From assembly GCF_024298765.1 (NCBI RefSeq), contig NZ_CP101210.1: a stretch of 64,000 nucleotides of DNA. The stretch is one strand, 5' to 3'. The stretch comes from Escherichia coli (lineage in GTDB: Bacteria; Pseudomonadota; Gammaproteobacteria; Enterobacterales; Enterobacteriaceae). The position numbers and the translations under genes are program-made. Under the pieces are notes generated by a model, which saw only the letters and a program-made list of their open reading frames with translations, was not told where the DNA came from and made no database searches. Within the stretch, counting starts at the first letter, position 1. Every line of letters starts with the position of its first letter. Below are positions 40,753-58,372 of the stretch, one piece after another.

Positions 40753-40755
40753 TTC

Positions 40756-41679
40756 TCACTCATCCCGCGCCGGACGATTTATTTTTCTGGCGCGGCGACG
40801 GGAATCCATTGAAATCAAAATCACTGATGACAGAATCAGAAGCGTTCCCAGCCAGTCCGGTAATGTGAATGTGATCCCCAGCAACAGCAAAGAGAGCAGC
40901 GCGCTACTTAATGGTTCTGCACAGCTCAAAATGCTGGCTTTTGGACCGCCAATTAATTGTGCTCCTTTCAGGTACAGACTAAATGTCAGGGACGTACCAA
41001 TGACCACCAAATAAAAAAACGCCAGAATCAAACTGCCGTTAACGACAAAGTTTGTCCCTTGTCTGGCATAAAAAGGCAACAGAATCAGACCGCCGATCAG
41101 CATACTCCAGCCGACGACAGGCAACGTGCCATAGCGGGCAATCAGCGTTGAGGGATAGGTGGTATAGAATGCCGCAGCAAATGCCGAGGCAATGCCCCAG
41201 AATAACGCGGCAGGAGAGATCGATAATGACGTCGGATTACCGTGTGTCACCAGTAAAAAAGTCCCGACCAGCGATGTCAAAATAGCGCAAAAAACCAGAA
41301 TGCCCGGGCGGGATTTACGCACCAGTGAGAACCAGGCGACGATAATCGTCGGTGAGAGGAATTGCAGCACCGTTGCCGTGGCAGCATTCGATTTTTCAAT
41401 GGTCAGTAAAAAGGTGAGCTGTACGGTTAGCGCGCCAACCACGGAAAAAATCAGCAGACTAATGGCATCTTTGTGATTGTTAATAATAGAAAAGATTTTA
41501 TCGCCATGAACAAATGACAGCGTCAGCAGAATCAAACCGGCGAATATCAAACGCGTCATAGTCAAAAACTGCGACGACATCTGGCTTTGCTCCATGATGT
41601 ATTGCGCGCAGACCCCTGAACTTCCCCACAACACGGCGGCAATCAGAACGTTCAGCATCCCCTTTCTGGTGGAACCCAT
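40756..41679 (-). CDS. yicL: EamA/DMT-family transporter YicL
   Basis: 307 aa from [21 protein letters not shown]; convergent with nlpA. Confidence 0.85.
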
Positions 41680-41845
41680 TTTTCCCTCTGCATACTGTTT
41701 TGTCTTTTCATCAATATACGTTAAGGATACCACTACCGATGACGGTGAGGGAGTAGAGTAATCAATCAGTTTTAGTGAATGGAGGAAATAATGACATATA
41801 ACAATTATTCATATGGTATTTAAAAAAACTCAATATGAAATTTAA

Positions 41846-42343
41846 TTATTTAATGTTCAATAACTCTATGGCTTTAGTATATTCATCAGGAATACCAATT
41901 GTAAAACAAGGTGCGGTATCGGTAGGTAGATTTTCTTTGTTATCATCATCCAGAACAGAAATAGAAAATTGTCGTTCAGGTGTTGATGTCGTGGTTATTA
42001 AAATGGTTGGATTAGGAAGAGAAACATATGTTGTATCATTTTTTAGTTTTATTTCTTTGATGTTTTCTTTGTTAATTTTATCAATCGTTTCAATAGAGAA
42101 AAAAGAATCATACCCCATTCGCAGTTCAATTTTATTATCGTTTTCGAATAAATAAATGGCATTATTGTTTTGAAGCAGATTGAATATATTGTTAGCGCAA
42201 GTTTGAGTTGCTAGCCAGGATGCCGCTGGATGACTCAAATTAATATGCGTGCTAAAGACTTTGACGCGACTACTTCTGTTTTTCTCTTTACTTTCAATTA
42301 AATGCCTAGCGCTTTTGGCTGCTTTACAAGTTCCATGCCCCAC
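41846..42343 (-). CDS. hypothetical protein (AT-rich orphan ORF; possible N-terminal membrane anchor)
   Basis: 165-aa ORF from GTG; in-frame upstream codons encode a hydrophobic stretch (IVIIKLIGTIFSVVIGVILIVSIL) with no canonical start before a stop. Confidence 0.35.
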   Translation of the reverse strand: MGHGTCKAAKSARHLIESKEKNRSSRVKVFSTHINLSHPAASWLATQTCANNIFNLLQNNNAIYLFENDNKIELRMGYDSFFSIETIDKINKENIKEIKLKNDTTYVSLPNPTILITTTSTPERQFSISVLDDDNKENLPTDTAPCFTIGIPDEYTKAIELLNIK

Positions 42344-42784
42344 ACGGCAAAAATAATCTCCTGAAAGGATACTTACAATCAGTATTACACCAATGACGAC
42401 AGAAAAAATAGTTCCGATGAGTTTGATGATGACAATCCTTGTGCAGTGTTATTTTCACCATGGATTATAATGTTATAGTGAAATTATTGCGCATGTAATT
42501 TTTCTTTGATTGTTTTAACATCACATTTATGCACTTCTTCATCTTTGTAGCAGGTAAAAGCCATATATGGATGGCTGGTGTCCGGTGCAGATAAAATGCA
42601 ACTTATTCTTGATAGCTTGAAAAAAAGAGAGGTTTTTTTGAGTGACGGTTGATAGTCGGTGGCAAGGAAGACGTTTTCGTACACTCGGCAAGAAAAACGA
42701 ATCACTCTGTCATACTACCAGATACATCAGCAGGGTCAGGTTGCTCAGAAATAAGCAGGATGGGGATCACTGAAGAGGCATTTT

Positions 42785-42804
42785 GGCGATCACAGGAGTC
42801 GAAT
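42785..42804 (-). repeat. selC 3-prime-end-like att remnant (island distal boundary)
   Basis: ggcgatcacaggagtcgaat contains gatcacaggagtcgaa, the reverse complement of the tRNA-Sec 3-prime end ttcgactcctgtgatc (from memory of selC). Confidence 0.5.
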
Positions 42805-42938
42805 ATGAGTGTTAATGTTTTGATTTTAAATGATTAATCTGTGTTGGATAAATGAGTAACCCCCATAAGAACCCCCAAATAACTTTGTGTAAGGGAATGA
42901 AGCTAAAATACACAATCGAATCAATTCTTAGAGCTTTA

Positions 42939-43781
42939 TTATGAAGGTAACACTCCCGGATAGTGTTTCGCAATAATATCATTCAGCCTGTCAACCAGTT
43001 CTGGTTTCCTGAACCTGATGTGCGCGGAGCCTTTCTTAAAGTATCTGATGCTGAACATCTCATCTTCATAGCATTCTTTACCCTGAACAGACCGGATGTG
43101 ATCATCCAGACGAATAGTGATGTTTTCCCGGTTGTCGGGGATCGGTTTACCGCTGAACAGGTGCAACATTCTTTCCAGATCGGCGAGTCGGTCAGCCTGT
43201 TGCCCGGTGATAAGATGAAATCCCCACCGGTCCCACCTTACCAGGTTGTTAATGATAATTTTACTGCCAAATTTACAGGGGCAATTAGTTTTGTAATTCC
43301 AGCTCAGTCCCCTGAAGACGTTGATCACCCCTCGCTCAAACACTTCATCTTTGTTCTGGTGCAGTTGTTTAAATGTGCTCAGAATGTTCGCTTCGCTGAT
43401 TTCCGGAAAATTATCGTATTCCAGTGACCGGTACCATGTCTCACGGGCCTGCGCATCCATTAATGACAGCATCCCGGAACGTTGCATCAGGTCACGCCAG
43501 ATTTCGCGATCGAGATTGCGGGTGATGGCTTTCATTGCCGTTTCAGGTTTTTCCATCAGCCAGCAACCACAGCGAAAATCCTGTTTCATCGCCCAGTCCA
43601 GTGCGGCTTTACCGTCAATACTTTCTGTCATTGCTGAGATTTCTGCCAGTTGCCGGGTAAGTGTGTCGATTTGCAGCAGCGTACTCTTTCGTACAGCCAG
43701 AATGTGGCGGATACTGGTTGAGCAGATAACGTCCGTATGCCCGTTGACCACTTCCGGACGGGGGGCTGTGATTTCAGACAT
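42939..43781 (-). CDS. hypothetical protein (DUF4942-like, terminal gene of CP4-type islands)
   Basis: 280-aa ORF; last gene of the minus-strand backbone block; family assignment from memory. Confidence 0.55.
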   Translation of the reverse strand: MSEITAPRPEVVNGHTDVICSTSIRHILAVRKSTLLQIDTLTRQLAEISAMTESIDGKAALDWAMKQDFRCGCWLMEKPETAMKAITRNLDREIWRDLMQRSGMLSLMDAQARETWYRSLEYDNFPEISEANILSTFKQLHQNKDEVFERGVINVFRGLSWNYKTNCPCKFGSKIIINNLVRWDRWGFHLITGQQADRLADLERMLHLFSGKPIPDNRENITIRLDDHIRSVQGKECYEDEMFSIRYFKKGSAHIRFRKPELVDRLNDIIAKHYPGVLPS

Positions 43782-43865
43782 AATCGATATTCCTTTTTGC
43801 AGATAAATGAAAACGCCTGCCCTGTTCAGGCTGGCGTCAGTGGAATGAAGTCTGGTGAGTAAGAC

Positions 43866-44288
43866 TCACCGGTTCTGGTACAGAAGCTGCAGTTGGCGCA
43901 GGGTACGGATATCCTCCCTGGCCTGTTCAATACAGGGCAACAGTGCTGCCGAATCCGTTTTGTCCTCATCGTTGTCAAAGATAATTTCCGATTCGCAGTC
44001 AATATTGTCCTGCAGCCACGCAATGAGGATATCCAGCGCTGTTTCAGTGGTTAATGGCATCACGCTCTGTATCACTGTATTGTCTTCCGGCAACTGATGA
44101 GGGCTGGCAGAAGTCGCCGGTGTTTCGGTAGCGTCATGTTCATCCACCACGCGGAGTGAATAACCGTTTTCAGCGACTTTGTTAATCAGTTCAGCGAGCT
44201 TAATACCATCGACGTCAACGACAATGCGCCCCATGTTCAGCGCCTGCGCATTAATGCTGTCGGCTTCCAGCGTCAGGGCCAGTTTCAT
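43866..44288 (-). CDS. YeeW-like protein
   Basis: 140-aa ORF immediately downstream of the CbtA-like toxin, with 4-bp overlap. Confidence 0.55.
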   Translation of the reverse strand: MKLALTLEADSINAQALNMGRIVVDVDGIKLAELINKVAENGYSLRVVDEHDATETPATSASPHQLPEDNTVIQSVMPLTTETALDILIAWLQDNIDCESEIIFDNDEDKTDSAALLPCIEQAREDIRTLRQLQLLYQNR

Positions 44289-44662
44289 TGTTTCGCCCCC
44301 GGATGTTTACCCAGGGTAATGTTATTTACCGTTCTGTAGTTGTCGCGTGTCATCAGGCCGGTTGCCCGGCGTGCCCGGAGGATATCAATACTGTTTATTA
44401 ACTGAGAACGGGTACAGGCGCTGAATCCCGGCTGGTCGGTACGTACCAGCGCGTATTTTTCAACGAGAAAGTTCACCGCATCACACAGTGAAATGCCCGC
44501 TTCAATATGCTGCTCAATCACACGTTCATCAGCGAACGGTGTGTCATTCAGCGCGAGGCCGTAGTGCTGGTCCAGTAACCGGGTGAGCAGTGTCTGCCAG
44601 ATGGTGACGGGAGACGGGCAGCACGATGCCTCCCGTACATGCGTGTCGGGTAATGTTTTCAT
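44285..44662 (-). CDS. cbtA: type IV toxin-antitoxin toxin, CbtA/YkfI/YpjF family
   Basis: 125 aa from MKTLPDTHVREASCCPSPVTIWQTLLTRLLDQHYGL...; strong match to remembered CbtA family sequence. Confidence 0.85.
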   Translation of the reverse strand: MKTLPDTHVREASCCPSPVTIWQTLLTRLLDQHYGLALNDTPFADERVIEQHIEAGISLCDAVNFLVEKYALVRTDQPGFSACTRSQLINSIDILRARRATGLMTRDNYRTVNNITLGKHPGAKQ

Positions 44663-44751
44663 AATGAAGATTTTCCTGATATGCAGAGATAAAAAATGGG
44701 ACAGTGGCGTGGTGAAAGCACCAGGCCGGAGCAGAAGGTTATTCTGGAGAG

Positions 44752-45120
44752 TTACTTTTTCGTTTCGGGCGTCGGATAAACAGCCATATAAACGTAGCCA
44801 CAACTGCCGAGGGTGTCGGCTTTGCAGGTCAGACCTTTTGCATACAGCGTGACGGTATGCTGATGGCGGGGATTCAGTTCACCGCTGGTGAGCATGAGTT
44901 CCAGTTGTTTCATCAGCAGCGGAAAGGCCTGGTCCAGGTGGTACGCATCTGCATCGCTGAACAGGCCTCTGATACCGGCGCGGTCGGCAAGGTAATGCAG
45001 GCGGTTACCCTCCTGCACCAGACGTGCCCCGAAACAGGGCGTCACGGTGCAGGGCAGCCCCCACCAGGGGCGGTCGTGATTGTCGTCGGGAAGCATTGTC
45101 CCGGAGAGTGCGTCTGACAC
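44752..45120 (-). CDS. cbeA: type IV toxin-antitoxin antitoxin, CbeA/YafW/YfjZ family
   Basis: 122 aa MSDALSGTMLPDDNHDRPWWGLPCTVTPCFGARLVQEGNRLHYLADRAGIRG...; directly upstream of toxin. Confidence 0.85.
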   Translation of the reverse strand: MSDALSGTMLPDDNHDRPWWGLPCTVTPCFGARLVQEGNRLHYLADRAGIRGLFSDADAYHLDQAFPLLMKQLELMLTSGELNPRHQHTVTLYAKGLTCKADTLGSCGYVYMAVYPTPETKK

Positions 45121-45282
45121 GATAAAATCCTCACAGAAAATCGGTTAAGAATGGTTTAACGATGACAGGTCAGCCGGCGCGCAGACCGCCTTCGGTAAAG
45201 GTGTATTCGTTTATGAGCAGGGCCTCATCCACAGCGGCGTCTGAGCTCAGCCAGTCGTACTCGTTTTCCGGGTGACGGAACA

Positions 45283-45504
45283 TCAGTTCAGGGTGACGCT
45301 CATCAGCCGGACATACGGGCCAAAACTGTCCTTACGACGTTCAGCAAACACGGCCAGCACACCGGGAATATCCTGTACTTCACGACCGGTATACGTCTCA
45401 GCACTGCCGTGCCAGCGGTACTTACCGGTGTAGAACGGAAAAAGACGGGATGCAGGATGTTGTTGGTGAATACGCATGGCTTCACCACGAGTGATAATTT
45501 TCAT
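45283..45504 (-). CDS. DUF987 protein (YeeT/YpjJ-like)
   Basis: 73 aa MKIITRGEAMRIHQQHPASRLFPFYTGKYRWHGSAETYTGREV... Confidence 0.75.
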   Translation of the reverse strand: MKIITRGEAMRIHQQHPASRLFPFYTGKYRWHGSAETYTGREVQDIPGVLAVFAERRKDSFGPYVRLMSVTLN

Positions 45505-45566
45505 AATGGGATACCTCTGAAGACAGAAGATAAAAGTGAAAACAGGTGTGATGTGGTTGTGACGGG

Positions 45567-46043
45567 TTAAAGCAGACCATGTTCGGCAAAGGAGAAAACC
45601 TGGTTGCCACCGACTATCAGATGGTCCGGCACCCGGATATCCACCAGGCCCAGTGCCTGTACCAGACGTTCGGTGATAAGCCGGTCTGCCTTACTGGGTG
45701 TGACTTCACCGGACGGGTGATTGTGCGCCAGCACCACGGCAGCGGCATTGTGGTACAGGGCGCGTTTAATCACTTCCCGGGGATGGACTTCCGTGCGGTT
45801 GATGGTGCCGGTGAAGAGGGTTTCACCGGCAATCAGCTGATTCTGGTTATTCAGATACAGTACCCGGAATTCTTCACGCTCCAGTCCCGCCATGTTCAGA
45901 ATCAGCCATTCCCGTGCCGCACGGGTGGAGGTGAAGGCCACGCCGGGTTCATGAAGATGACGGTCCAGGGTTTTCAGGGCCCGCTGAATAAGGCTGCGCT
46001 CGCCGGGCGTCATCGCTCCGGGCAGAAAGGAAAGCTGTTGCAT
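45567..46043 (-). CDS. RadC-like JAB-domain protein (YeeS/YkfG/YfjY family)
   Basis: 158 aa; JAMM motif HNHPSGEVTPSKAD. Confidence 0.85.
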   Translation of the reverse strand: MQQLSFLPGAMTPGERSLIQRALKTLDRHLHEPGVAFTSTRAAREWLILNMAGLEREEFRVLYLNNQNQLIAGETLFTGTINRTEVHPREVIKRALYHNAAAVVLAHNHPSGEVTPSKADRLITERLVQALGLVDIRVPDHLIVGGNQVFSFAEHGLL

Positions 46044-46054
46044 GGCCTCTCTCC

Positions 46055-46534
46055 TCAGTCAATGATGCGCATAATGGCGCTGCATTCCGGATGCTGCAGG
46101 GCGTAATCCCGCAGCCGGTAATAATGGACCGTCATGGCATAACACTCCGTACGACAGGCGTGATGACTGTACGTCATCAGACAGGCAGCAATGCCGGCGG
46201 CTTCCGGGCTCATTTCAGCGCGGTTACCGTTCATGGCACTGAACAGTACCCATGTTTCGTCATCATCGTCATCCGGTTCGGGTGCCATAAATGCGCCACC
46301 GTTGTTCAGGGTGTACAGATTCCAGATACCCCCGCAGTAGTCTTCACACAGACGGTCCATCCAGCCGAAGATACGGGGCTCCAGGGTCACCCACTGTGGA
46401 ATGAGGCCAAAATGCTGCGGCCAGAAGCTGATGCGCTGTTCATCAGGGACGAGGCTGGCAACCAGCTGAGGCGGATTATTCTCTGGTGTTGTAGCTGAAT
46501 AAATTGTGGGGGTATTCTGAGAAACGGTCTTCAT
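46055..46534 (-). CDS. antirestriction protein (ArdB/KlcA family, YfjX-like)
   Basis: 159 aa; acidic DDDDDE stretch; conserved position upstream of radC-like gene. Confidence 0.8.
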   Translation of the reverse strand: MKTVSQNTPTIYSATTPENNPPQLVASLVPDEQRISFWPQHFGLIPQWVTLEPRIFGWMDRLCEDYCGGIWNLYTLNNGGAFMAPEPDDDDDETWVLFSAMNGNRAEMSPEAAGIAACLMTYSHHACRTECYAMTVHYYRLRDYALQHPECSAIMRIID

Positions 46535-46615
46535 GAGATAACTCCTTAAATAACAAATAAATGTGTGTTTTTCAGGAACGAAAGCTGAATGATTCCCTCA
46601 CTCAGGGAAACGGCA

Positions 46616-47434
46616 TCAGCGCAGGCTCTCCAGCATCGTTTCTGCCATCACCCACAATGCGCGGTTGAGCTTAATGTCGGTATCAATGCTGTGAATGGCC
46701 CGGGTATGGATACGTTTTCCTCTGGCACTGCGCCCGGAAATCCCGCCTTTCAGCATATTCTCCTGGATGGTCTGATAAGCACTCCACAGGTCCTTACCGT
46801 AATCCTCCCGGCGTCGTGGTGTCAGAATGTCGGCGGTGGTGACGGGCTGATGTTCGTCACCATAACGGTAAGTCAGCGCCGCCTGTGCCAGCGCCTGGCG
46901 TGCCGGTGGCGGCAGGACCAGCGACTGCATGGCATCACGCTTCTCCTCTATCCGGTCAAACACGCCCACCACCTCGTAAGCCCCTTCAATGACTCTGTCC
47001 ACCACATTTCCCCGGTGCGGAACACGTACTTCCCCCAGAGACTGACCACAGACGCAGCCGTTCTGGCAGACGAACCTGAAGTACCCCGGCAGCATCTGGT
47101 AGCTGGAGGTACCGTCATGAGAGTTGAGCAGAATAATTTCAGGGACATGTTCTCCGTTTATCTCTCCGGCCCGCCGCAGACGCAGCATGTGTTTTGTGTA
47201 TTCCCGGCGGCTCTGGTCGCGCACACGGGTCTGGCAGGCGAAGAACGGCTGAAAGCCTTCCCGCTGCAGATTTTCCAGGACGGTGATGGTGGGAATGTAC
47301 GCATACCGTTCACTGCGGGAGGTGTGCCGGTCTTCTCCAAAAATACTCGGGACGTGGTACATCAGTTCTTCGCGTGTCAGTGGGCGCTCCCGACGGATCT
47401 GATTTACATGACCAAAACGACTGGCTAATTGCAT
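46616..47434 (-). CDS. DUF932 protein (YafZ/YfjQ-like)
   Basis: 272-aa ORF; conserved backbone position. Confidence 0.75.
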   Translation of the reverse strand: MQLASRFGHVNQIRRERPLTREELMYHVPSIFGEDRHTSRSERYAYIPTITVLENLQREGFQPFFACQTRVRDQSRREYTKHMLRLRRAGEINGEHVPEIILLNSHDGTSSYQMLPGYFRFVCQNGCVCGQSLGEVRVPHRGNVVDRVIEGAYEVVGVFDRIEEKRDAMQSLVLPPPARQALAQAALTYRYGDEHQPVTTADILTPRRREDYGKDLWSAYQTIQENMLKGGISGRSARGKRIHTRAIHSIDTDIKLNRALWVMAETMLESLR

Positions 47435-47472
47435 ACTTTGCTCCTTATGAATGAATTAGCGGTATAAACGAA

Positions 47473-47500
47473 AAGGCCGCGTCTCCCGGAGAAGACGCGG
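47473..47500. other. intercistronic GC-rich stem-loop
   Basis: ggccgcgtct-cccggaga-agacgcggcc: perfect 10-bp stem between the DUF905 and DUF932 genes. Confidence 0.5.
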
Positions 47501-47523
47501 CCTGATGGATGAAATGAAGACGT

Positions 47524-47757
47524 TTATTGCCTGAGAATTCCCTCACTGGCGAGATACGAATTTAGCTGTTTTCCGGCATCAGGTTCAAAATTCCAGCACC
47601 GCCAGCGTAGCTGCCCTTCGGCATTGCGGATAACCAGCCGGAAATGCGTTCCCTGGTCATCCTCAATAAGCACATTGCGGTAAGCTGTTGTGACGGCAAC
47701 CGCCTGTTCGCGTGAGAAAGGGCCTTCGGGCAATAAAACAGGGTGGCAGTCCGACAT
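47524..47757 (-). CDS. DUF905 small protein
   Basis: 77-aa [51 protein letters not shown]... Confidence 0.65.
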
Positions 47758-47762
47758 ACCGG

Positions 47763-48440
47763 CTATTTTCCGATAAATTCAACGCTGGCGCCGGTGGCAT
47801 TACCGTCAGCACCAACCGTGACGGTCACTTTGTCGTACGCACGGTCTTCAGGATTGAATACTTCAAACTCAACCTTATTGCCTTTTACTTCGTAAGAGCC
47901 AAAATCAGCGGTTTCTGTTGTTTCCTCGTCATATTCCCGGGCGTATGCCTGCCGGGCAGCCTGCAGGACGGAATCTTTATTAATAGTGGTCGTCTGTTTC
48001 GGGGAAAAACCGGCAAGTGATGTGACAAATTTCGGACAGACCTTCAGCATATCACCGCGGGTGAATTCCATTCGTACACCAAATGCCTGTAAAACGGACA
48101 CATCACGCTCTGCTATGGAGTGAACGGCTTTTTTGACCATTTCCGGCGCCTGTCCGATTTCCACCTCAACAGCCCTGAATCCCGTCTGCTGATTACACAT
48201 TTGTGATGTGGGGATCAGGTTACCGTTAATACTGATACGGCTGCCCAGGAGCGTCTGTACACCATTCGGGCATCCCTGCATCAGGCCGGTAATACCAATC
48301 GTGCCATTTTTCAGCATTACCAGCGCCTGACCATCTTCCGTCATGGTCTGACACCAGCCGTTTTTGACAGCCCAGTTGCCGGCGGAGGCGGAGAATGATG
48401 CCACAGTGAACAGCAGGGGAAAAAGAGCTCTGGTATTCAT
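47763..48440 (-). CDS. secreted/periplasmic protein of unknown function
   Basis: 225 aa from [20 protein letters not shown] (signal peptide); GAGG Shine-Dalgarno upstream. Confidence 0.55.
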
Positions 48441-48587
48441 GACTGACCTCTGAAATGAACGTACGGTGTTATTGATAATGATGGAAGGTATGCAGTGACT
48501 GTTCAGGGAATGACGTAGCCGTATATTTAGTTTTCTGTTCAACATATTGTCTCCATACCTGTCGGGACGGCTTTGGCAGGCCGGCGA

Positions 48588-49268
48588 TCACAGGTTAAAG
48601 GTGTTGATAAGTTTATGGATGAAAGAGAAATGTGGCAGGGCGGAGATAAAACGCTCTTCAGCGACCAGACTGTGGATGTGGCCTCTCCGTTCAAACCGTT
48701 CTGATGTCAGGCTGACTGATTTGATATCTGCCAGAGGAAAGACCTGCAGTTTTCCCTTCTGTAACGCGATCAGATACCAGCTACCGCTGTAATAAATGAG
48801 CCGGCAGGGCTCCAGTGACGGATACCATCGCTCAGTCATCAGAGAGATGTGGATACACTGTCTTATTGCCAGGATGAGTTGCGAGAAACACTCGGGGAAC
48901 GTTGCAGTGATATCCGGCGCCGGTAGCCAGATAAGGCAGGGAGAGGGCTCCTGGTTGTCGGTAAGACAGGTTATCAGTCGTCCGTTCCGGAGCGGAAGTA
49001 TCCGTGCGATCCCGGTATTCTGTATAAAAGAAAGCATTTCAGGGATCGCACCTGGGCTGCTCTGTCGTCTGAGGCTGTACCTGCCATTTCTGTACTCTAA
49101 ATCCAGGTGAACCAGACGCTGATGAAAATCGCGCTGTAAAGTACGTTCTGTAACGCCAAATTCATCTGACAGTGTTTTTAGTGACAGAGATTCTCCGGCC
49201 ATCAGTCGGCTGATAATGAGTGATAAGCGAACCGCCAGGCGATCATGCCGGGAACGATTATCAGACAT
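48588..49268 (-). CDS. HTH plus WYL-domain transcriptional regulator (YfjR-like)
   Basis: 226 aa; N-terminal DeoR-type HTH (KTLSDEFGVTERTLQRD); C-terminal WYL-like region. Confidence 0.65.
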   Translation of the reverse strand: MSDNRSRHDRLAVRLSLIISRLMAGESLSLKTLSDEFGVTERTLQRDFHQRLVHLDLEYRNGRYSLRRQSSPGAIPEMLSFIQNTGIARILPLRNGRLITCLTDNQEPSPCLIWLPAPDITATFPECFSQLILAIRQCIHISLMTERWYPSLEPCRLIYYSGSWYLIALQKGKLQVFPLADIKSVSLTSERFERRGHIHSLVAEERFISALPHFSFIHKLINTFNL

Positions 49269-49470
49269 AGATGTGCACTCCGTAAGAAAACATCTTTTAT
49301 TTCATGATGTTATTATGCATCATGATGTTGAAAGGATGTGTCGCATCCGGATAATCAGGAATAAAATGCAGCAGAAAAAATATTCTTTTAATTATCTGAT
49401 TTTTAAGCATGATTTCATAAAAAGAAGAATGCTCGTTAATCCAGCGACACATCCTGTCGGCGTGAGTGTG

Positions 49471-50355
49471 TCAGAACAGACGCTCCCACAGTGTGATCAG
49501 CAGGTGGATAATGCGGTCCCGGGCTTTACGCAGAAGCTGTAACATCCAGGCCGGAAAACTGAACCGGGCAACGGCGTCGTCAAAACTTTTCCCGATGGCA
49601 TCACCAAAAGTCTGTTGTGCGTGTTTCCGGGCCTGTTCAGAGCGGTTTTCCCCCCTGATATGTGAATAAACTGCGCTGGTTGCCTGTGGTGGCAGCGCGT
49701 GGATCATCAGTGACACCAGCGCTGGAAGGTTCCAGCCTGCAGGTGCGGCTACAGGGAGTACCGGAAATGATGAAGGGAACAGGGTGGCCACCCGGGCTGT
49801 TACTGTCGCCAGTGAGAGTTCCTGGTGACGGGACGGGCATTTTTCTGTGGCATTCCATTCTTCAGCAGGAAACATGCGATCGGCATGGCTGAGAACAAAC
49901 AGAAAGCGCGAGGGATCTGCGCCCTCATTCAGTAAAAACTGATGCATGGCAATATCGGCAGCATACGCACGTTCATCACTCCGCAGGATCCAGATAATCA
50001 GATCCAGTTCCGGCAGTAACTGACGATAAAGCGCTCGGTATTCCTGATCATGCTGCGGTGTTTCACCAATGCCGGGCAGATCGACCAGCGTCATTCTGCG
50101 TTCACCGAGCTGCAGGGTAAGACGATGAGCCTGGCGGGTGCAGCCGTTCAGGGGATGCGTGGCGCAGATACGGGACTGAAAAATGGCATTACACAGGCTG
50201 CTCTTGCCGGTGCCGGATTTACCCATAATGCCAATCACGGGCTCGTAATGAATAACACCGTGGAGATGTTCAAGGATTTTCTGGCGTATTTCTTCAGGAA
50301 GAAACGTCAGATATGATTTCACTTGCGCGGAGAGGGAAGAATTGCTGAATGGCAT
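49471..50355 (-). CDS. GTPase (YfjP/YkfA/YeeP family)
   Basis: 294 aa; P-loop GKSGTGKSS, DLPG switch, ribosome-associated GTPase-like. Confidence 0.8.
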   Translation of the reverse strand: MPFSNSSLSAQVKSYLTFLPEEIRQKILEHLHGVIHYEPVIGIMGKSGTGKSSLCNAIFQSRICATHPLNGCTRQAHRLTLQLGERRMTLVDLPGIGETPQHDQEYRALYRQLLPELDLIIWILRSDERAYAADIAMHQFLLNEGADPSRFLFVLSHADRMFPAEEWNATEKCPSRHQELSLATVTARVATLFPSSFPVLPVAAPAGWNLPALVSLMIHALPPQATSAVYSHIRGENRSEQARKHAQQTFGDAIGKSFDDAVARFSFPAWMLQLLRKARDRIIHLLITLWERLF

Positions 50356-50455
50356 ACCGGTATCCTGTTGATTTCACTGAACCGGATCACACTAATCCGG
50401 TTTATCATTCAGGTAATATGGGTGTGAAAATTTTTCCATTGACGGGAAGAAGAGT

Positions 50456-51679
50456 ATGGCTAAAAACAAAGGTATTTGTCGGAATAAAAAATGCAGTAAT
50501 CCTGTTTCAGAATTTGATGAGGCAAATGCCTTAAGGTTATGCGATGATCATTATAAGCTATGGAAGCGAAATAAAGAGAATCGTCGGGTCAGGAATATTT
50601 GTCGTATAATCAGTAAATATGACAAAAGTCTGGACCGGGAGATATTTTATGGAGTAAGAGATGCTGCAAAAAATAAAACGGGAAAGAGAATTATTGAGGA
50701 CGCAAAAATATTACATCAATGCCGTGCCTCAAAGCAAGTAAGAAAAAGTTTTCACAAGGGTGTGCTTCGGTCACGGGAATGGCTTAATACACAGGAGTTA
50801 CTGAGCAGAAAACATATATCTGTTACAGGTGAACTATTTAAATTTTACATAAAAGATATTATCAGATTATATTGCTATAAGTTTCTCTACAGCAGAGAAT
50901 ATCTTAATGAAAACGCATACAAAAAACGATATCAGAGTGATATTCACCCCAGAAAAGTTAATGTTCCGATACTGCAACTTGAAGTTGCATGGATAAATAA
51001 TAATTGCCGTTCAAGTGATTCAAGCACTGATATTATTATCCTTCCGAGGATGATAAGAAGAATGGTTGTATTTAATTATACGAAGATAAATAAACAATTA
51101 GAGAAATTGTTAGGGGGGATAGCACGAAAACAAACCTCAGAAAGGAATAAAGGCGGTCTCTATACCAGAATAAAAAAAGAAAGTGACTTTCTTTCTATGG
51201 ATAGATTTATGGTGGAAATAGAAAATATCATAAGGCCTGAAAGGTTTCCGACATCAATTTATCCAGTCTTTTCACATTCATTTATTGAACGAGAGCTTCC
51301 GCTACTGAATCTTGCTCGATCACAGTATAAAAGAGCAATAAGTAAAAAAGTGGCGAATTCAATTTTTTATACTTTGCAAAAAACTAACGTAGCATTATGG
51401 CTACATCTTGAAATGTTTGCTCTGGTGGCATTCATTAAACTGTATACAGGAAAAGGTTTTGAATTCATAAAAAACATGTGTGCATTTATCGATTATAATA
51501 ATGGGATAATAAAATCCACACATGAAGAACTACTGGGTGAAATTAAGCATAACATTCAGGTTAATTTGAAGGTGAACCCTGATAATTTTCCTGAGCTAAT
51601 AAATATATACAATTCATGTTTTAGTAAAAATATATTTTTATATGATATTAATGATGGTAATTTTAAATGGTGTTCATGA
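50456..51679 (+). CDS. hypothetical protein, Lys-rich with N-terminal Cys/His cluster (candidate novel defense/abortive-infection gene)
   Basis: 407-aa ORF; purine-rich RBS; very AT-rich codon usage; C8-x4-C13...C29-x2-H32; divergent from GTPase gene. Confidence 0.6.
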   Translation: MAKNKGICRNKKCSNPVSEFDEANALRLCDDHYKLWKRNKENRRVRNICRIISKYDKSLDREIFYGVRDAAKNKTGKRIIEDAKILHQCRASKQVRKSFHKGVLRSREWLNTQELLSRKHISVTGELFKFYIKDIIRLYCYKFLYSREYLNENAYKKRYQSDIHPRKVNVPILQLEVAWINNNCRSSDSSTDIIILPRMIRRMVVFNYTKINKQLEKLLGGIARKQTSERNKGGLYTRIKKESDFLSMDRFMVEIENIIRPERFPTSIYPVFSHSFIERELPLLNLARSQYKRAISKKVANSIFYTLQKTNVALWLHLEMFALVAFIKLYTGKGFEFIKNMCAFIDYNNGIIKSTHEELLGEIKHNIQVNLKVNPDNFPELINIYNSCFSKNIFLYDINDGNFKWCS

Positions 51680-51978
51680 TTCTAAAATAGCAAATTCATA
51701 TTGCATATTAATTATCAACAAAAAACACATAATAAAATTTCAATAAGTTACCTGCTAATGGTGCTGATGATCCGCCAGTTTAGTATGGTTATATGATTTG
51801 ATGGTTAATGCTTACAGATAATCACACTTTCTTATGAATAGTATAAATGAGCATGCCATAGTCGTTTGTTCAGAGATAAAATTTACTGAATGAGCTTATG
51901 TTGTGGTTATCTGTACTTACCGGATACGACGACTTATATTCCTCACATTATATGGCTTAACTTTTCTGGGGTAAAGCG

Positions 51979-52044
51979 ATGGAGTTACAGACGCTGATTA
52001 CGATGGTTTACTGTCTCGTTATCACGGGATTTCTGCTGTACTGA
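51979..52044 (+). CDS. putative 21-aa hydrophobic mini-protein (speculative)
   Basis: ORF MELQTLITMVYCLVITGFLLY preceded by GGGGTAAAGCG; could be chance in AT-rich DNA. Confidence 0.2.
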   Translation: MELQTLITMVYCLVITGFLLY

Positions 52045-52184
52045 ATACGTGAACAGGAAAATAACTCCAGAGTAAATCTGCTCTGTTTTTAGGACAGAAA
52101 ACTCCATGCTGGCTGTAAAAGTGAAAAATTAACACCCAGTATGTATGGAAGTCTGAAGATGTTGAGAATGTCGGTATGATACTA

Positions 52185-52330
52185 TATACACGTATTTTAC
52201 TAAGTATTTTTACTAAGCATTTCAGTAAGTGTTATACACGTATTTTCTACTAAGTGTTTTACCAGACATACACGTATTTTCATAAACACTTCTACAAGTG
52301 TTTTCGTTAAGCATTGCTATACACATCCAG
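52185..52330. repeat. tandem imperfect direct repeats (ATACACGTATTTT ... ACTAAGTnTTTT)
   Basis: tatacacgtatttt at 52185 and 52233, catacacgtatttt at 52267, gctatacacatcc at 52317; each followed by actaagt/acaagt then a T-run. Confidence 0.5.
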
Positions 52331-52842
52331 TTTAGTAAATCTTTACGTTAACTAAATCAGTTTAATGCTGCTGTAAAACCTTTCTGTTTAAGCAATCAAT
52401 CTGCTATTCGATTTTACTGATGTTACGTTTAACCTTTCCTTAGATTTCGAGTTTCGACGTTAGCTTGAGAAAAGTATCTTTACGTAAAGCCCAGTGAATT
52501 AACTCAAATCCGATTGAGGTAACCTGATGCGATTTACTGTGAGTTTGCGATAACACTGTTAAATGGCTTATGGATGATTTTGTAACGGCGAGATTGATAA
52601 GGTGATTAACTGGCCCTGGTGTTTTTTCTCAGCGTAAGGTGATTATCTTCATCATAAGGCTCTTTTCAGAAAAAGTGTGATGATTGGTTGTGGTGTTTTG
52701 ATTCAGATGAGGATCTGCCAATGATTATGATGTATTGTAAGAAATAACGCCTTCAGAATGTTGGAGCATGCACTTACACAAACTGTTTTTCTAAAATTAA
52801 GGGAACAGTTTAAAGAGTATAAACTGTTCATCTTCTTCAGGA

Positions 52843-53373
52843 TTAAGCTACATTGTTGTTATGACTGACAGGATTGTTTTCTTCCCCTGACTCTGGGCTT
52901 AACAGTCCCTGGCGTTGTAGATATTCACTGACTGACATTCCAGAACTACGGATCCTGTCAGAGATTTTACGAAATTGATCCTTCCATTCTGCAGGTAATT
53001 TCTTAATTTGTCTGACTTTACAGGCTACACTGTACGGGGTTCGCCCTAGTTTCTCTGCCAGCCAGAAAAGGTGTTTACCAATTTCATCGTCCGGTACATC
53101 CTCCAGAACATCTCGCAATAAACTCTCGTCTGCCTCATTCCATGCCACACCAGCATTTGGGAAACGAGGATCGATCTCTCTTTCCTTCTTCTCCTTCTTA
53201 CTTTGCTCTTTTCGGGATGATACAGATACGACAGAACGTTCTTTTACCGCTGTAATTGCCATAACTGCATTGAGCAGAGATCTGCGCTCCACATCGTTCA
53301 GCATTTTTCCTTCACAGATCAAATCATTCAGGATGTCAATGACTAGATTCAGACTTTCTTCTGTTAGCTTCAT
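52843..53373 (-). CDS. hypothetical protein with putative HTH
   Basis: 176-aa ORF; AAGG RBS 8 nt upstream; charged KE-rich linker; HTH-like LAEKLGRTPYSVACKVRQIKK. Confidence 0.55.
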   Translation of the reverse strand: MKLTEESLNLVIDILNDLICEGKMLNDVERRSLLNAVMAITAVKERSVVSVSSRKEQSKKEKKEREIDPRFPNAGVAWNEADESLLRDVLEDVPDDEIGKHLFWLAEKLGRTPYSVACKVRQIKKLPAEWKDQFRKISDRIRSSGMSVSEYLQRQGLLSPESGEENNPVSHNNNVA

Positions 53374-53987
53374 ATTTCAGACCTTGAAGTATGTAGATAA
53401 TCAGCACAATTACTAATGTGATAAATATCAGAAGATAATTTACAGGTAAACCGGAAAATACATCTGAAGAATAAAGGCCTCAGCTTAACGTTTCAGCCAG
53501 TTTGTGAGCTGATTGAGGTACGGCGATGACATTAACGGGAATTACTCCCCTATAGCTCTGAGCTTATTTTTCACCCTGGCAACATATGGTGGCTACTGCG
53601 CATGGTTTTGGAGTAGATATCTTACTACTCGTAGAATTGTGCTTACTGGTCAGGCCAGCGCACAGGCATTCCGTGCAATCAATAGAACACTGGTTTTTTA
53701 GTCTTCCGTTACCCATCAGGATGTTAGTGCAGATTCCGGTGTATTCGATCAGTTGTTCGGCGAATCAGCGATCGATCACGATGCGATTTCGTATGTTAGG
53801 GATGCTGGTATGATTACTCGCTGAAAAATAATGTGAAAAGGCAGTTTTTCTTTAGACATTTAGCTCATTCATGCTGTTGTTTTACGTTTTGCTGTCGTGT
53901 GCAGGATTATCTTTTCGTTACGGGACGATTCATTCCGTTTTAATCAGGAGCTATTGGCGTTGCTCATTGGTGGGATGCCGTAAAGTT

Positions 53988-54035
53988 TTACCGCGGCGAT
54001 TAATGATGTGAAGTCAATCCAAATCAACGGAGATC
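53988..54035. repeat. conserved leader element (copy 1) shared with 62702-62744
   Basis: ttaccgcggcgattaatgatgtgaagtcaatccaaatcaacggagatc versus ttaccgccttgcttaatgatgtgaactgaagtcaacggagatc. Confidence 0.55.
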
Positions 54036-54042
54036 TCTCATC

Positions 54043-54774
54043 ATGAATCAACCAATACACAATGATTACTGGTTATCCCGTTTTGAAAGTATTCTCAACA
54101 GTGCCCTGGTGCAACACCGTGCCGTCTCGTTAATCCGGGTGGATTTACGTTTCCCTGAGCATATGCCTGTCACCATCATGGATCCCGATCCGGATTCAGC
54201 GGTGATTTCTCGTTTTTTCGAATCCCTGAAAGCCAAAATTCAGGCTTACCAGCGGAAAAAACGACGTACCAACAAGCGTGTGCGTGCAACCACCCTGCAT
54301 TATTTCTGGTGTCGAGAGTTTGGCAAGGAAAAAGGCAGGAAACATTATCACGTGATATTACTGCTCAACAAAGATACCTGGTGCTCGCCAGGGGATTTCA
54401 CCGTTCCTTCTTCGCTGGCGACGCTGATCCAACTGGCATGGTGTAGCGCTCTGCATCTTGAGCCCTGGCAGGGTAATGGACTGGTTCATTTTTCCAGGCG
54501 GACGCCTTTCCGTAAACCGGCATCATCTGATGCTCGCCCTTCTTCCGATGATACGCCTTTGTCGGGTGGATGTTCTGAAACCAGGAAGGCTTCAGACAAA
54601 AAGCCGGGTGAAGCCGCTGTTCTCTGGATCAAGCGTGGTGATGTGGAAGCGATGCAGAAAGCCATGGAGAGAGCCCGTTATCTCGTGAAGTATGAGACGA
54701 AGCAGCATGACGGTTCTGGTCAACGTAATTATGGTTGCAGCCGTGGAGCGGGGCGTCTACTGGATGGCAGGTGA
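54043..54774 (+). CDS. inovirus Gp2-like replication-associated protein (YagK/YfjJ family)
   Basis: 243 aa; HYHVILLL motif region; family assignment from memory. Confidence 0.65.
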   Translation: MNQPIHNDYWLSRFESILNSALVQHRAVSLIRVDLRFPEHMPVTIMDPDPDSAVISRFFESLKAKIQAYQRKKRRTNKRVRATTLHYFWCREFGKEKGRKHYHVILLLNKDTWCSPGDFTVPSSLATLIQLAWCSALHLEPWQGNGLVHFSRRTPFRKPASSDARPSSDDTPLSGGCSETRKASDKKPGEAAVLWIKRGDVEAMQKAMERARYLVKYETKQHDGSGQRNYGCSRGAGRLLDGR

Positions 54775-54884
54775 ACCCTGTAAAACGGCATCCGGTGCCA
54801 GAGTATATGTCACAGTAAGGTCGTTGGCTGACGCCCTTAGCTCGTTTTCTGAAAAAGTTTTTCTGAAGTAATGTGGATTTGCCC

Positions 54885-55790
54885 CTATATTTCCAGACAT
54901 CTGTTATCACTTAACCCATTACAAGCCCGCTGCCGCAGATATTCCCGTGGCGAGCGATAACCCAGCGCACTATGCGGATGCCATTCGTTATAATGCTCGA
55001 ACGCCTCTGCAAGGTTCTTTGCTGCCGTTAACCCGTCTGGTTTGGGCATGATACTGATGTAGTCACGCTTTATCGTTTTCACGAAGCTCTCTGCGATTCC
55101 GTTACTCTCCGGACTCCGCACCGCCGTGTTCTTCGGTTCAAGTCCCAACATCCGGGCGAACTGGCGTGTTTCATTAGCCCGGTAGCATGAACCATTATCC
55201 GTCAGCCACTCCACTGGAGACGACGGAAGATCGTTGCCGAAGCGGCGTTCCACCGCTCCCAGCATGACGTCCTGTACTGTTTCACTGTTGAAGCCGCCGG
55301 TAGTGACCGCCCAGTGCAGTGCCTCACGATCACAGCAGTCCAGCGCGAACGTGACACGCAGTCTCTCTCCGTTATCACAGCAGAACTCGAACCCGTCAGA
55401 GCACCATCGCTGATTGCTTTCTTTCACGGCCACTCTGCCTGTATGTGCCCGTTTCGATGGCGGTACAGCAGGTTTTCGCTCAAGCAACAGCGCATTCTGG
55501 CGCATGATCCGGTAAACACGTTTGGCATTGATCGCAGGCATACCATCAAGTTCGGCCTGTCTGCGAAGCAGCACCCATACCCGACGATAACCATATGTGG
55601 GCAGCTCTCCGATAACATGGTGTATACGGAGAAGCACATCCGTATCATCAGTGTGACGGCTGCGGCGACCATCTTTCCAGTCATCGGTTCGTCTGAGAAT
55701 GACGTGCAACTGCGCACGCGACACCCGGAGACAACGGCTGACTAAGCTTACTCCCCATCCCCGGGCAATAAGGGCGCGTGCGCTATCCAC
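54885..55790 (-). CDS. insD: IS2 transposase InsD (OrfB)
   Basis: 301 aa [34 protein letters not shown]...; DDE integrase core. Confidence 0.92.
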
Positions 55791-56113
55791 TTTTTTGCAC
55801 GCCCATATTCAACGGCTTCTTTAAGGAGTTCATTTTCCATCGTTTTTTTGCCGAGCAGGCGCTGGAGTTCTTTAATCTGCTTCATGGCAGCAGCAAGTTC
55901 AGAGGCAGGAACGACCTGTTCTCCTGCGGCCACAGCAGTAAGACTTCCCTCCTGGTATTGCTTGCGCCAGAGAAATAACTGGCTGGCTGCCACACCGTGT
56001 TGCCGGGCAACAAGGGAGACCGTCATTCCCGGTTCAAAACTCTGCTGAACAATAGCGATCTTTTCCTGTGTAGTACGCCGTCTGCGTTTCTCCGGTCCTA
56101 AGACATCAATCAT
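55748..56113 (-). CDS. insC: IS2 InsC (OrfA)
   Basis: 121 aa from [29 protein letters not shown]. Confidence 0.9.
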
Positions 56114-56261
56114 CTGCTCTCCAATGACTAGTCTAAAAACTAGTATTAAGACTATCACTTAAATAAGTGATATTGGTTGTCTGGAGATTCAGGGGGGCCA
56201 GTCTACTGAATGAGCGAAATGTGATTTACCTTCTTTTCTGTTCATTGTAAATTCCCTCTTT

Positions 56262-56290
56262 GCTAACGCAAATCATTATCATTACGCCTT
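56262..56290 (+). promoter_or_regulatory. putative Fur box in receptor promoter
   Basis: aatcattatcattac contains AATCATTATC, an exact match to the 3-prime half of the Fur consensus GATAATGATAATCATTATC. Confidence 0.45.
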
Positions 56291-56306
56291 TGGCAAAGGG
56301 AAATTT

Positions 56307-58355: not shown

Positions 58356-58372
58356 GAGTATATAAAGACAAC

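What the first reader, a model, noticed from the sequence alone, without database searches (positions are those of the whole stretch)
42785..42804. Island boundary: degenerate copy of the selC 3-prime end where AT-rich DNA begins
gatcacaggagtcgaa is the reverse complement of the tRNA-Sec 3-prime end as I remember it. It lies 135 bp beyond the last island gene and marks the switch from island to non-island sequence. The orientation implies that selC and the integrase lie beyond the right edge of the window, so the island is at least 21 kb.
Basis: partly seen in the sequence, partly recalled or inferred. Interest (0 to 1): 0.55.

Follow-up and report, generated by a model that had tools for sequence, protein, structure and literature searches.

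The report
Far-end scar of selC genomic island
This short sequence is the leftover copy of the end of the selenocysteine tRNA gene that marks the far edge of a large (about 86-91 kb) mobile island in an E. coli chromosome, a textbook boundary first described for uropathogenic strain 536, so it is real but ordinary.

Summary
Window 42788-42803 (minus strand) is an exact copy of selC nt 72-87 (TTCGACTCCTGTGATC). After a 4-nt gap (TTCC missing) come GCCA and 10-13 nt of the native sequence downstream of selC.

This is the distal attachment-site remnant (attR) of a selC-integrated island that runs rightward out of the window. In genomes 100% identical and collinear with the window, intact selC (minus strand) and a tyrosine integrase lie at 128-133 kb. 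The island is therefore about 86-91 kb, and selC is 64-69 kb beyond the window edge, not a few kb.

The junction has the same structure as the distal end of PAI I of E. coli 536 and of the CFT073 selC island: same 16-mer, same 4-nt gap, same flank, same GGGGGT-N6-GGGGGT motif 73 nt inside. The integrase is 95% identical to that of PAI I536.

One correction. The AT-rich 1.07 kb to the left (41709-42773) is not conserved core. It replaces K-12's yicT'-setC, carries a decayed rhuM-family fragment and an orphan ORF, and is never found joined directly to selC in 5,426 genomes. Conserved core resumes at yicL.

Already known; low interest.

The parts
42788..42803 (-). 16-nt core direct repeat, TTCGACTCCTGTGATC, identical to selC nt 72-87. 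This is the crossover core of the island's distal attachment site (attR).
   Evidence: Exact, unique match to the annotated tRNA-Sec gene. The same 16-mer is at the distal end of PAI I536 and the CFT073 selC island. It is reported as the direct repeat of selC islands in PMC6174562.
42774..42787 (-). Displaced native 3' tip of selC (GCCA, nt 92-95) plus 10 nt of native selC-downstream flank (AAATGCCTCT). It is joined to the core with selC nt 88-91 (TTCC) missing.
   Evidence: Alignments with K-12, ST131, the B strain and 536. The flank AAATGCC also follows intact selC in E. whittamii and a Citrobacter species.
42804..42938 (-). Non-coding terminal 135 bp of the island, between the core repeat and the last island gene.
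   Evidence: Contiguous with the DUF4942 gene in two different flank contexts, the window/CFT073/536 type and the B strain/O104:H4 type.
42859..42876 (-). GGGGGTTCTTATGGGGGT repeat motif, a candidate arm-type binding site for the integrase or excisionase (inferred).
   Evidence: Unique in the window, with 0.07 expected by chance. It sits at a fixed -73 from every distal remnant examined. A sister copy sits at +137 from the selC core at the integrase end in four genomes. K-12 has none. Both repeats are listed in PMC6174562.
42939..43781 (-). Last island gene, encoding a DUF4942-domain protein. It is the end of a CP4-type module (DUF957, CbtA/CbeA toxin-antitoxin, JAB/RadC-like, antirestriction, DUF932 and others, up to about 50.4 kb).
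   Evidence: ORF list and RefSeq annotation of a 99.96%-identical genome.
42804..64000 (.). The part of the selC island inside the window, 21.2 kb of about 86-91 kb. It holds the CP4-type module, very AT-rich orphan genes, IS2, ireA, IS256/IS3 remnants, YfjJ-like genes and an AlpA-like gene.
   Evidence: Annotation. GC is 47.1% here against 52.2% for 1-41708. selC and the integrase are at 128-133 kb in collinear genomes.
41709..42773 (.). AT-rich (34.7% GC) strain-variable segment between the remnant and yicL. It lies outside the integrase-delimited island but is not conserved core, and it replaces K-12's yicT'-setC.
   Evidence: No similarity to K-12 over this span. It is present in roughly 1,640 of 5,426 genomes and never directly joined to selC. 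GC.
42496..42699 (-). Decayed rhuM-family gene fragment inside the AT-rich flank.
   Evidence: tblastn with ST131 RhuM gives 40% identity over 80 aa, E = 2.8e-10. Pfam's only hit is Virulence_RhuM PF13310, and it is weak (i-E 0.037).
41846..42343 (-). 165-aa orphan ORF in the AT-rich flank, annotated as a hypothetical protein.
   Evidence: Annotated in MSHS 133, CFT073, ST131 and ATCC 25922. No NCBIfam, Pfam or PADLOC family matches.
40756..41679 (-). yicL, the first conserved core gene to the left of the flexible region.
   Evidence: 94.6% identity to K-12 from 38427 to 41708. Homology resumes about 28 nt upstream of the yicL ATG.

Best explanation
The motif is the distal attachment-site remnant (attR) of a genomic island integrated into the 3' end of the selenocysteine tRNA gene selC.

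Mechanism (established for this class; inferred here). A P4-type tyrosine integrase recombined a circular element's attP with the last ~24 nt of selC. The element supplied a replacement 3' end, so selC stays intact next to the integrase gene. The original 3' end, with its native downstream flank, was pushed to the far side of the island.

That displaced end is what lies at 42774-42803. It consists of the 16-nt crossover core, then GCCA and AAATGCCTCT, with 4 nt (TTCC) since lost. The island runs from 42804 rightward, out of the window, to selC about 86-91 kb away. A GGGGGT-N6-GGGGGT motif 73 nt inside this end, with a sister copy 137 nt from the core at the other end, probably serves as arm-type protein-binding sites (inferred).

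The scar is older than the present cargo (inferred). The identical 4-nt-gapped scar with the same AT-rich flank bounds islands of quite different content in 536, CFT073 and this lineage. It also survives in ST131, where only a 1-kb rhuM gene separates it from selC. The two island ends therefore behave as a fixed scaffold within which cargo has turned over.

Recombination between the two 16-mers would excise the island and leave a selC lacking TTCC, with a crippled acceptor stem.
For: Shown by tools:

- Exact 16/16 match to selC nt 72-87, unique in the window.
- GCCA plus 10 nt of the native K-12 downstream flank immediately outside it. The same flank follows intact selC in E. whittamii and a Citrobacter species.
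- Conserved K-12-order core (uhp-ade-nepI-nlpA-yicL) on the left, and CP4-type mobile-element genes, IS elements and lower GC on the right.
- In genomes 99.96-100% identical to the window, intact selC in the predicted orientation with a 394-aa tyrosine integrase 300 bp away, at 128.5-133.4 kb.
- The integrase is 95% identical to the PAI I536 integrase and matches NCBIfam PRK09692 at E = 1e-94, below that model's curated cut-off of 434 bits (317 bits).
- The junction has the same structure as 536's PAI I distal end and is 99.7% identical to CFT073's.
- Textbook full 24-nt remnants occur at the same island end in strains with K-12-type flanks.
- The arm-like motif is conserved at fixed offsets at both ends.

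Literature:

- The 2x TTCGACTCCTGTGATC repeat and the two GGGGGT repeats are reported for selC islands (PMC6174562).
- The Tia-PAI at selC is flanked by repeats identical to those of PAI-1 of UPEC, and excision of PAI I536 depends on its own integrase (PMC7545054).
Against: - selC and the integrase are not in the window, so the far end is known only from collinear genomes.
- No genome among 5,426 shows the exact empty site for this flank, so integration into this particular flank cannot be reconstructed directly.
- The remnant is imperfect (4 nt missing), which simple site-specific recombination does not predict and which needs a later deletion.
- The DNA just outside the remnant is itself non-core, so the remnant is not the edge of the whole flexible region.
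- The arm-site role of the GGGGGT motif and excision competence are untested.
- ARAGORN still calls a 92-nt tRNA-Sec on the simulated excision product, so loss of function after excision is not shown computationally.
Confidence: 0.93

Rival explanations
1. The scar is the fresh footprint of a single, recent integration of this particular ~86-91 kb island into a previously empty selC site carrying the AT-rich flank.
For: The core is a perfect 16/16, the integrase gene is intact, and arm-like motifs are present at both ends.
Against: The same 4-nt gap and the same flank occur with different cargo in 536 and CFT073. They also occur with only a 1-kb rhuM gene in ST131, and with a DUF2441 gene and a retron-type HNH gene just inside the scar in ATCC 25922. 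Independent integrations would be expected to leave full 24-nt remnants, as in O104:H4. No empty site with this flank exists in 5,426 genomes. The island is an IS-rich mosaic with an inverted AlpA/YfjJ module.
Confidence: 0.12
2. The real boundary of foreign DNA is at yicL (41708/41709), and the selC remnant is an internal seam between two layers of acquired DNA rather than the island-to-core switch.
For: The 41709-42773 segment is absent from K-12, is 34.7% GC, holds a rhuM-family fragment and an orphan ORF, and is never directly adjacent to selC. Sequence just downstream of intact selC in K-12 and ST131 resembles the island's own selC-proximal arm, which suggests older layers.
Against: This is compatible with the remnant being the attR of the integrase-delimited element, and it changes only what lies outside it. 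The 10-13 nt next to the remnant are the genuine native selC flank, conserved across genera. The AT-rich segment is single-copy, fixed at this locus in about 30% of genomes, and carries no mobility genes.
Confidence: 0.45
3. The 16-mer is a chance match with no relation to selC.
For: None beyond its shortness.
Against: About 3e-5 exact matches are expected by chance. The match is flanked by GCCA plus the native selC flank, lies at the exact core/island transition, and is conserved at the same position in hundreds of genomes with selC islands.
Confidence: 0.001

Closest known systems
PAI I536 (PAI-536-selC) of uropathogenic E. coli 536 and its 16-bp direct repeat
   Same: The distal junction has the same structure: TTCGACTCCTGTGATC, the 4-nt gap, GCCAAAATGCCTCTTCAGTGATCCCC, the same AT-rich flank with the ORF165 homologue and yicL, the same terminal DUF4942/CbtA module, and the same GGGGGT motif at -73. 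The integrase is 95% identical.
   Different: Cargo differs. PAI I536 (77 kb) carries alpha-haemolysin and fimbrial genes according to PMC7545054. This island (~86-91 kb) carries ireA, fec, pgt, PTS/transketolase, hlyE and an autotransporter.
GI-CFT073-selC (selC island of E. coli CFT073)
   Same: 99.7% identity across the 301-bp junction. Same flank, scar and distal CP4-type module, and an integrase 300 bp from selC.
   Different: About 67.5 kb, with different cargo (Qat defence genes, the grp microcompartment, an amino-acid decarboxylase and others).
AGI-3 of APEC BEN2908 and GIselC17584/1 of STEC
   Same: Both are selC islands reported with 2x TTCGACTCCTGTGATC and the repeats TTTGGGGGTACTTTAGGGGGT / TTTGGGGGTTCTTATGGGGGT near the two ends (PMC6174562). 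These are the same sequences found here.
   Different: Different sizes (about 49-50 kb) and cargo. PMC6174562 also describes a 24-bp selC repeat ending the insertions it analysed, without the 4-nt gap.
LEE, SHI-2, Tia-PAI and LPA-type islands at selC
   Same: They use the same tRNA-Sec 3' end as integration site. The SHI-2 integrase is reported as almost identical to that of LEE, and the Tia-PAI repeats as identical to those of PAI-1 of UPEC (PMC7545054).
   Different: Different cargo and, for LEE, different distal ends. These were not examined here at sequence level.
CP4-57 / CP4-6 / CP4-44 cryptic P4-like prophages of K-12
   Same: Same gene module at the distal end (YfjQ/DUF932, antirestriction, RadC-like, CbeA/CbtA, DUF4942), and the same tRNA/tmRNA-integrase-AlpA logic (from my own knowledge of K-12 annotation).
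   Different: Those elements sit at other tRNA/tmRNA loci and are 20-35 kb. Here the AlpA-like gene is displaced and inverted relative to the integrase.

Membership tests
tRNA-integrated genomic island boundary (PAI I536-type selC island attR) | Distal direct repeat identical to the 3' part of selC | tested here: met
   16/16 exact match to selC nt 72-87. 20 of the last 24 nt are present, with a 4-nt gap.
tRNA-integrated genomic island boundary (PAI I536-type selC island attR) | Native selC-downstream flank displaced to the outer side of the repeat | tested here: met
   GCCA plus AAATGCCTCT(TCA) matches K-12 and AF57 downstream of selC. The same flank follows intact selC in E. whittamii and a Citrobacter species.
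tRNA-integrated genomic island boundary (PAI I536-type selC island attR) | Intact selC in the same orientation at the other end, with an adjacent tyrosine integrase | tested here: met
   Not in the window. Present in three collinear genomes that are 99.96-100% identical over the stretches compared: selC (minus strand) at 128.5-133.4 kb, with the integrase 300 bp away. The integrase is 95% identical to Int of PAI I536.
tRNA-integrated genomic island boundary (PAI I536-type selC island attR) | Unoccupied site in other strains, reconstructable as selC joined to the flank | tested here: inconclusive
   K-12 has selC with no island and shares 10 nt of flank before diverging. Strains with a K-12-type flank plus the island show clean 24-nt remnants. 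For the window's own AT-rich flank, 0 of 5,426 genomes show an empty site.
tRNA-integrated genomic island boundary (PAI I536-type selC island attR) | Enclosed DNA is accessory: composition shift, mobility genes, variable presence | tested here: met
   GC 47.1% against 52.2%. CP4-type module and many IS elements. The full junction is present in only 183 of 5,426 genomes.
tRNA-integrated genomic island boundary (PAI I536-type selC island attR) | Conserved repeated motifs in both arms, as described for AGI-3 and GIselC17584/1 | tested here: met
   GGGGGTTCTTATGGGGGT at -73 (distal) and GGGGGTACTTTAGGGGGT at +137 (proximal). They match the sequences in PMC6174562. Protein binding was not tested.
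tRNA-integrated genomic island boundary (PAI I536-type selC island attR) | Integrase-dependent excision through the repeats | not testable with these tools
   Reported for PAI I536 (PMC7545054, citing Hochhut 2006). Here only simulated: the product lacks TTCC in the acceptor stem.

The most novel reading that the evidence does not exclude
In every lineage carrying the AT-rich ORF165 flank, the selC attR has the same 4-nt deletion. Any integrase-mediated excision would then regenerate a selC with a broken acceptor stem.

This could act as a lineage-wide 'lock'. Clean excisants would be counter-selected because they lose selenoprotein formate dehydrogenases. That would explain why none of 5,426 complete genomes shows the excision product, and why cargo is instead lost or exchanged internally, leaving a fixed two-ended scaffold such as ST131's 1.2-kb relic.

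From memory (Blum et al. 1994, not held in the library), loss of functional selC on PAI I deletion was already reported for strain 536. Only the population-level reading would be new.
Probability: 0.3. Interest if true: 0.3.

Novelty: already known. Interest (0 to 1): 0.08.

Why it matters
It matters little beyond annotation. It correctly delimits one end of a large ExPEC/APEC-type selC island (ireA, fec, pgt and others), and it shows that the window holds only about a quarter of that island.

Three practical points follow:

- The boundary is the classic PAI I536 16-bp repeat.
- The 1.07 kb outside it should not be treated as conserved core.
- Because of the 4-nt gap, precise excision would probably damage selC. 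This bears on island stability but is consistent with what I recall being reported for strain 536.

Tried and rejected
- **ARAGORN on the window:** no tRNA, so selC is not in the window.
- **Rfam at gathering thresholds:** nothing at the locus. The only hits were dnaA antisense AsdA, ES036, ROSE_2, istR and an IS3 ALIL pseudoknot.
- **Other selC fragments:** a search through the window and through about 146 kb of a near-identical genome found only chance-level 10-12-mers. There are no internal att copies at module seams.
- **Synthetic empty-site query** (selC joined to the window's flank): 0 of 5,426 genomes.
- **Simulated excision product:** ARAGORN still calls a 92-nt tRNA-Sec, while RNAfold shows the acceptor stem reduced from 8 bp to 4+2 bp. 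This is inconclusive for function.
- **ORF165 and the two very AT-rich island genes:** NCBIfam (run on ORF165 only), Pfam (ORF165 only) and PADLOC (all three) gave no family.
- **Scan of species-representative genomes for the scar:** only the 4-nt (ungapped) form was found. It is intact selC plus AAATGCC in E. whittamii and Citrobacter sp. In the Leclercia locus no tRNA is called and the locus may be cut. No gapped scar appeared outside E. coli.
- **Primary papers** (Blum 1994, Middendorf 2004, Chouikha 2006): not held in the library. What I say about them rests on secondary papers or on memory and is marked as such.
- **Chance match:** rejected.
- **AlpA-integrase-selC junction just beyond the window:** rejected. 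The neighbour of the integrase is IS1.

Full report
**The observation**

The + strand at 42774-42809 reads AGAGGCATTT TGGC GATCACAGGAGTCGAA TATGAG.

I took the annotated 95-nt tRNA-Sec gene from a near-identical genome. It reads GGAAGATCG...GGTTCGACTCCTGTGATCTTCCGCCA. A short-word BLAST places selC nt 72-87 exactly on 42803-42788, minus strand. Every other selC-like hit in the window is a chance-level 10-14-mer.

A pattern search finds this one exact copy. Two sites need 3 mismatches, against 0.40 expected. An exact 16-mer is expected about 3e-5 times in 64 kb on both strands (my arithmetic). ARAGORN finds no tRNA in the window.

**What the window is**

The window is E. coli chromosome starting at dnaA: the AsdA antisense RNA of dnaA is at 511-591.

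- Window 30000-64000 is 99.96% identical to the same coordinates of NZ_CP041304.1 (strain MSHS 133). That strain differs only by an extra ISVsa5 at 59.9 kb.
- Over the two stretches searched (41500-44500 and 56000-64000) it is 100% identical and coordinate-collinear with NZ_CP058874.1, NZ_CP129272.1 and NZ_CP126952.1, the last an O78:H4 APEC.

To the left of the motif lies the K-12-order core: uhpBCT, adeD, adeQ, yicN, nepI, yicS, nlpA and yicL, ending at 41679. A hypothetical 165-aa ORF follows at 41846-42343. To the right, from 42939, lies a CP4-type mobile-element module (DUF4942, DUF957, CbtA/CbeA, JAB/RadC-like, antirestriction, DUF932 and others). Beyond that are very AT-rich orphan genes, IS2, ireA, IS256/IS3 remnants and YfjJ-like genes.

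**Comparison with the unoccupied K-12 site**

K-12 reads selC ...GATC TTCC GCCA | AAATGCCTCT CCTGACG..., followed by yicT', setC and yicL. The window, read on the selC strand, gives ...CATA TTCGACTCCTGTGATC ---- GCCA AAATGCCTCT TCAGTGATCCCC....

The remnant is therefore the last 24 nt of selC minus TTCC (nt 88-91), followed by 10 nt of genuine selC-downstream flank. The match is 13 nt against strains such as AF57. The motif AAATGCC also follows intact selC in Escherichia whittamii and a Citrobacter species, so it is the native flank.

This is what integration at the tRNA 3' end predicts: the original 3' end and its flank are displaced to the far side of the inserted element.

**The other end**

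| Genome | selC (minus strand) | Integrase (394 aa) |
|---|---|---|
| MSHS 133 (NZ_CP041304.1) | 129793-129887 | 128309-129493 |
| STLEFF_47 (NZ_CP058874.1) | 133367-133461 | 131883-133067 |
| APEC E12049 (NZ_CP126952.1) | 128452-128546 | 126968-128152 |

All three have yicJ and yicI beyond selC. The island thus spans about 86-91 kb, and selC is 64-69 kb past the window's right edge.

The gene beside the integrase is IS1, not alpA. An AlpA-like excisionase gene does exist inside the window at 63551-63787, on the + strand. It points toward selC and has no integrase beside it. This is one sign that the island is a rearranged mosaic.

**Identity with known islands**

The integrase is 95% identical to that of PAI I of E. 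coli 536. It matches NCBIfam PRK09692 at E = 1e-94, although the score (317 bits) is below that model's curated cut-off of 434 bits.

The distal end of PAI I in 536 has the same structure as the window's: the same 16-mer, the same 4-nt gap, GCCAAAATGCCTCTTCAGTGATCCCC, the ORF165 homologue, and yicL. CFT073 shares the 301-bp junction at 99.7%. Its selC and integrase lie about 67.5 kb away with entirely different cargo.

The literature already lists these features.

- PMC6174562 reports 2x TTCGACTCCTGTGATC, together with TTTGGGGGTACTTTAGGGGGT and TTTGGGGGTTCTTATGGGGGT near the two ends of a STEC selC island. It refers back to the avian island AGI-3.
- The same paper describes a 24-bp selC repeat ending the insertions it analysed.
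- PMC7545054 notes that the Tia-PAI at selC is flanked by repeats identical to those of PAI-1 of UPEC. It also notes that PAI I536 excision depends on its own integrase.

I find the GGGGGT-N6-GGGGGT motif once in the window, at 42859-42876 on the minus strand, with 0.07 expected. It lies at a constant -73 from every distal remnant examined. It lies at +137 from the selC core at every integrase end examined. K-12 has none. A role as arm-type binding sites is my inference.

**Population view**

| Class | Genomes | What is shared with the window |
|---|---|---|
| A | 183 of 5,426 (includes CFT073) | The whole junction |
| B | roughly 1,400 (ST131, ATCC 25922, Nissle and others) | AT-rich flank, scar and about 77 nt of the island end |
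| C | B-strain derivative, O104:H4 and others | Scar plus island end, next to a K-12-type flank (rhuM'/yicT, setC) |

In ST131 (class B), only a 1-kb rhuM-family gene separates the scar from intact selC.

Scar type tracks flank type.

- K-12-type flanks carry a full 24-nt remnant (O104:H4, AF57, 10035776-3), or a 3-nt gap in the B strain.
- The AT-rich flank always carries the 4-nt gap (window, CFT073, 536). ST131 and ATCC 25922 add a T-to-G change.

From this I infer that the gapped scar is inherited and older than the present cargo. The two ends form a stable scaffold within which content has turned over.

**The left flank is not core**

- Window 41709-42773 has no K-12 counterpart. Homology resumes only about 28 nt before the yicL ATG.
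- It is 34.7% GC, against 52.2% for the core at 1-41708.
- ORF165 has no known family.
- It contains a decayed rhuM-family fragment at 42496-42699, minus strand. tblastn against ST131 RhuM gives 40% identity over 80 aa, E = 2.8e-10. Pfam's only hit is Virulence_RhuM and it is weak.
- K-12's yicT is likewise a rhuM fragment.
- A synthetic empty site (selC joined to this flank) is found in 0 of 5,426 genomes, although the flank itself occurs in roughly 1,640.

The motif therefore marks the end of the integrase-delimited island. The flexible, probably anciently acquired DNA continues another 1.07 kb to yicL.

**Consequence of the gap**

Recombination between the two 16-mers would give selC nt 1-87 joined to GCCAAAATG. 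RNAfold shows the 8-bp acceptor stem reduced to 4+2 bp, but ARAGORN still calls a tRNA-Sec, so computation alone is inconclusive. From memory, Blum et al. 1994 (not held) reported that deletion of PAI I in strain 536 abolishes functional selC. The absence of any excision product among 5,426 genomes is consistent with that, though it does not prove counter-selection.

**Verdict**

This is the classic PAI I536-type selC island boundary. It is already known and of low interest.

Noticed in passing
window 42859-42876 (-), with sister copies in L003, L008, L010 and L011 at +137 from the selC core: A GGGGGT-N6-GGGGGT repeat lies at fixed offsets inside both island ends (-73 distal, +137 proximal). 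It is conserved across 536, CFT073, ST131, the B strain, O104:H4 and ATCC 25922 and is absent from K-12. It is listed as a repeat in PMC6174562, but I found no stated function. It is a likely arm-type integrase/excisionase site.
   Followed up: partly
window 42496-42699 (-): A decayed rhuM-family gene fragment lies in the AT-rich flank outside the island. K-12's yicT is a similar fragment. ST131 has a full-length rhuM between selC and the scar in addition to this fragment, which suggests successive layers of rhuM-carrying DNA at selC (compare rhuM in Salmonella SPI-3, from memory).
   Followed up: partly
window 41846-42343 (-): A 165-aa orphan ORF (27-29% GC region) lies between yicL and the scar. 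It is conserved in CFT073, ST131 and ATCC 25922, with a shorter homologue annotated in 536, and has no NCBIfam, Pfam or PADLOC family.
   Followed up: partly
window 42784-42788 junction, versus L006, L012, L013 and L014: Scar variants cluster exactly at the 3' edge of the 16-nt core: a full 24 nt, a 3-nt gap (B strain: GATC-T-GCCA) and a 4-nt gap (GATC-GCCA). Two different small deletions at the same spot may reflect the integrase cleavage/overlap position rather than random decay.
   Followed up: partly
window 63551-63787 (+), with YfjJ-like ORFs at 62086-62652 and beyond the edge: An AlpA-like excisionase/regulator gene (PHROG 'excisionase and transcriptional regulator', E = 4.5e-10) is flanked by YagK/YfjJ-like genes. 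It is oriented toward selC and lies far from any integrase. It looks like an inverted or second CP4-type proximal module inside the mosaic island.
   Followed up: partly
window 50456-53373: This is the most AT-rich stretch of the window (31-36% GC). It holds a 407-aa ORF (+) and a 176-aa ORF (-), both without any PADLOC match. It sits between the GTPase (YeeP-like, weak LeoBC hit) and an inovirus-Gp2-family gene. It could be a cargo or defence hotspot.
   Followed up: partly
window about 54885-62300: ireA (56307-58355) is bracketed by IS2 and a frameshifted IS256, followed by IS3 remnants (ALIL pseudoknot at 60018-60134). Strain MSHS 133 has an additional ISVsa5 inserted at about 59880 that the window lacks.
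   Followed up: no
L015 (ATCC 25922), about 2876-5231: In ATCC 25922 the same scar and flank are followed by a DUF2441 gene, a retron-type HNH endonuclease and an AAA ATPase. These are defence-like cargo at the same scaffold position.
   Followed up: no
L005 (ST131), 634-1294: ST131 has a RelE/ParE toxin plus HTH antitoxin pair inserted between yicN and nepI. It is absent from the window.
   Followed up: no
window 26564-26693, 16241-16313, 6068-6110 and 511-591: Ordinary core RNA elements found by Rfam: istR, ROSE_2 thermoregulator, ES036 sRNA and AsdA antisense of dnaA.
   Followed up: no
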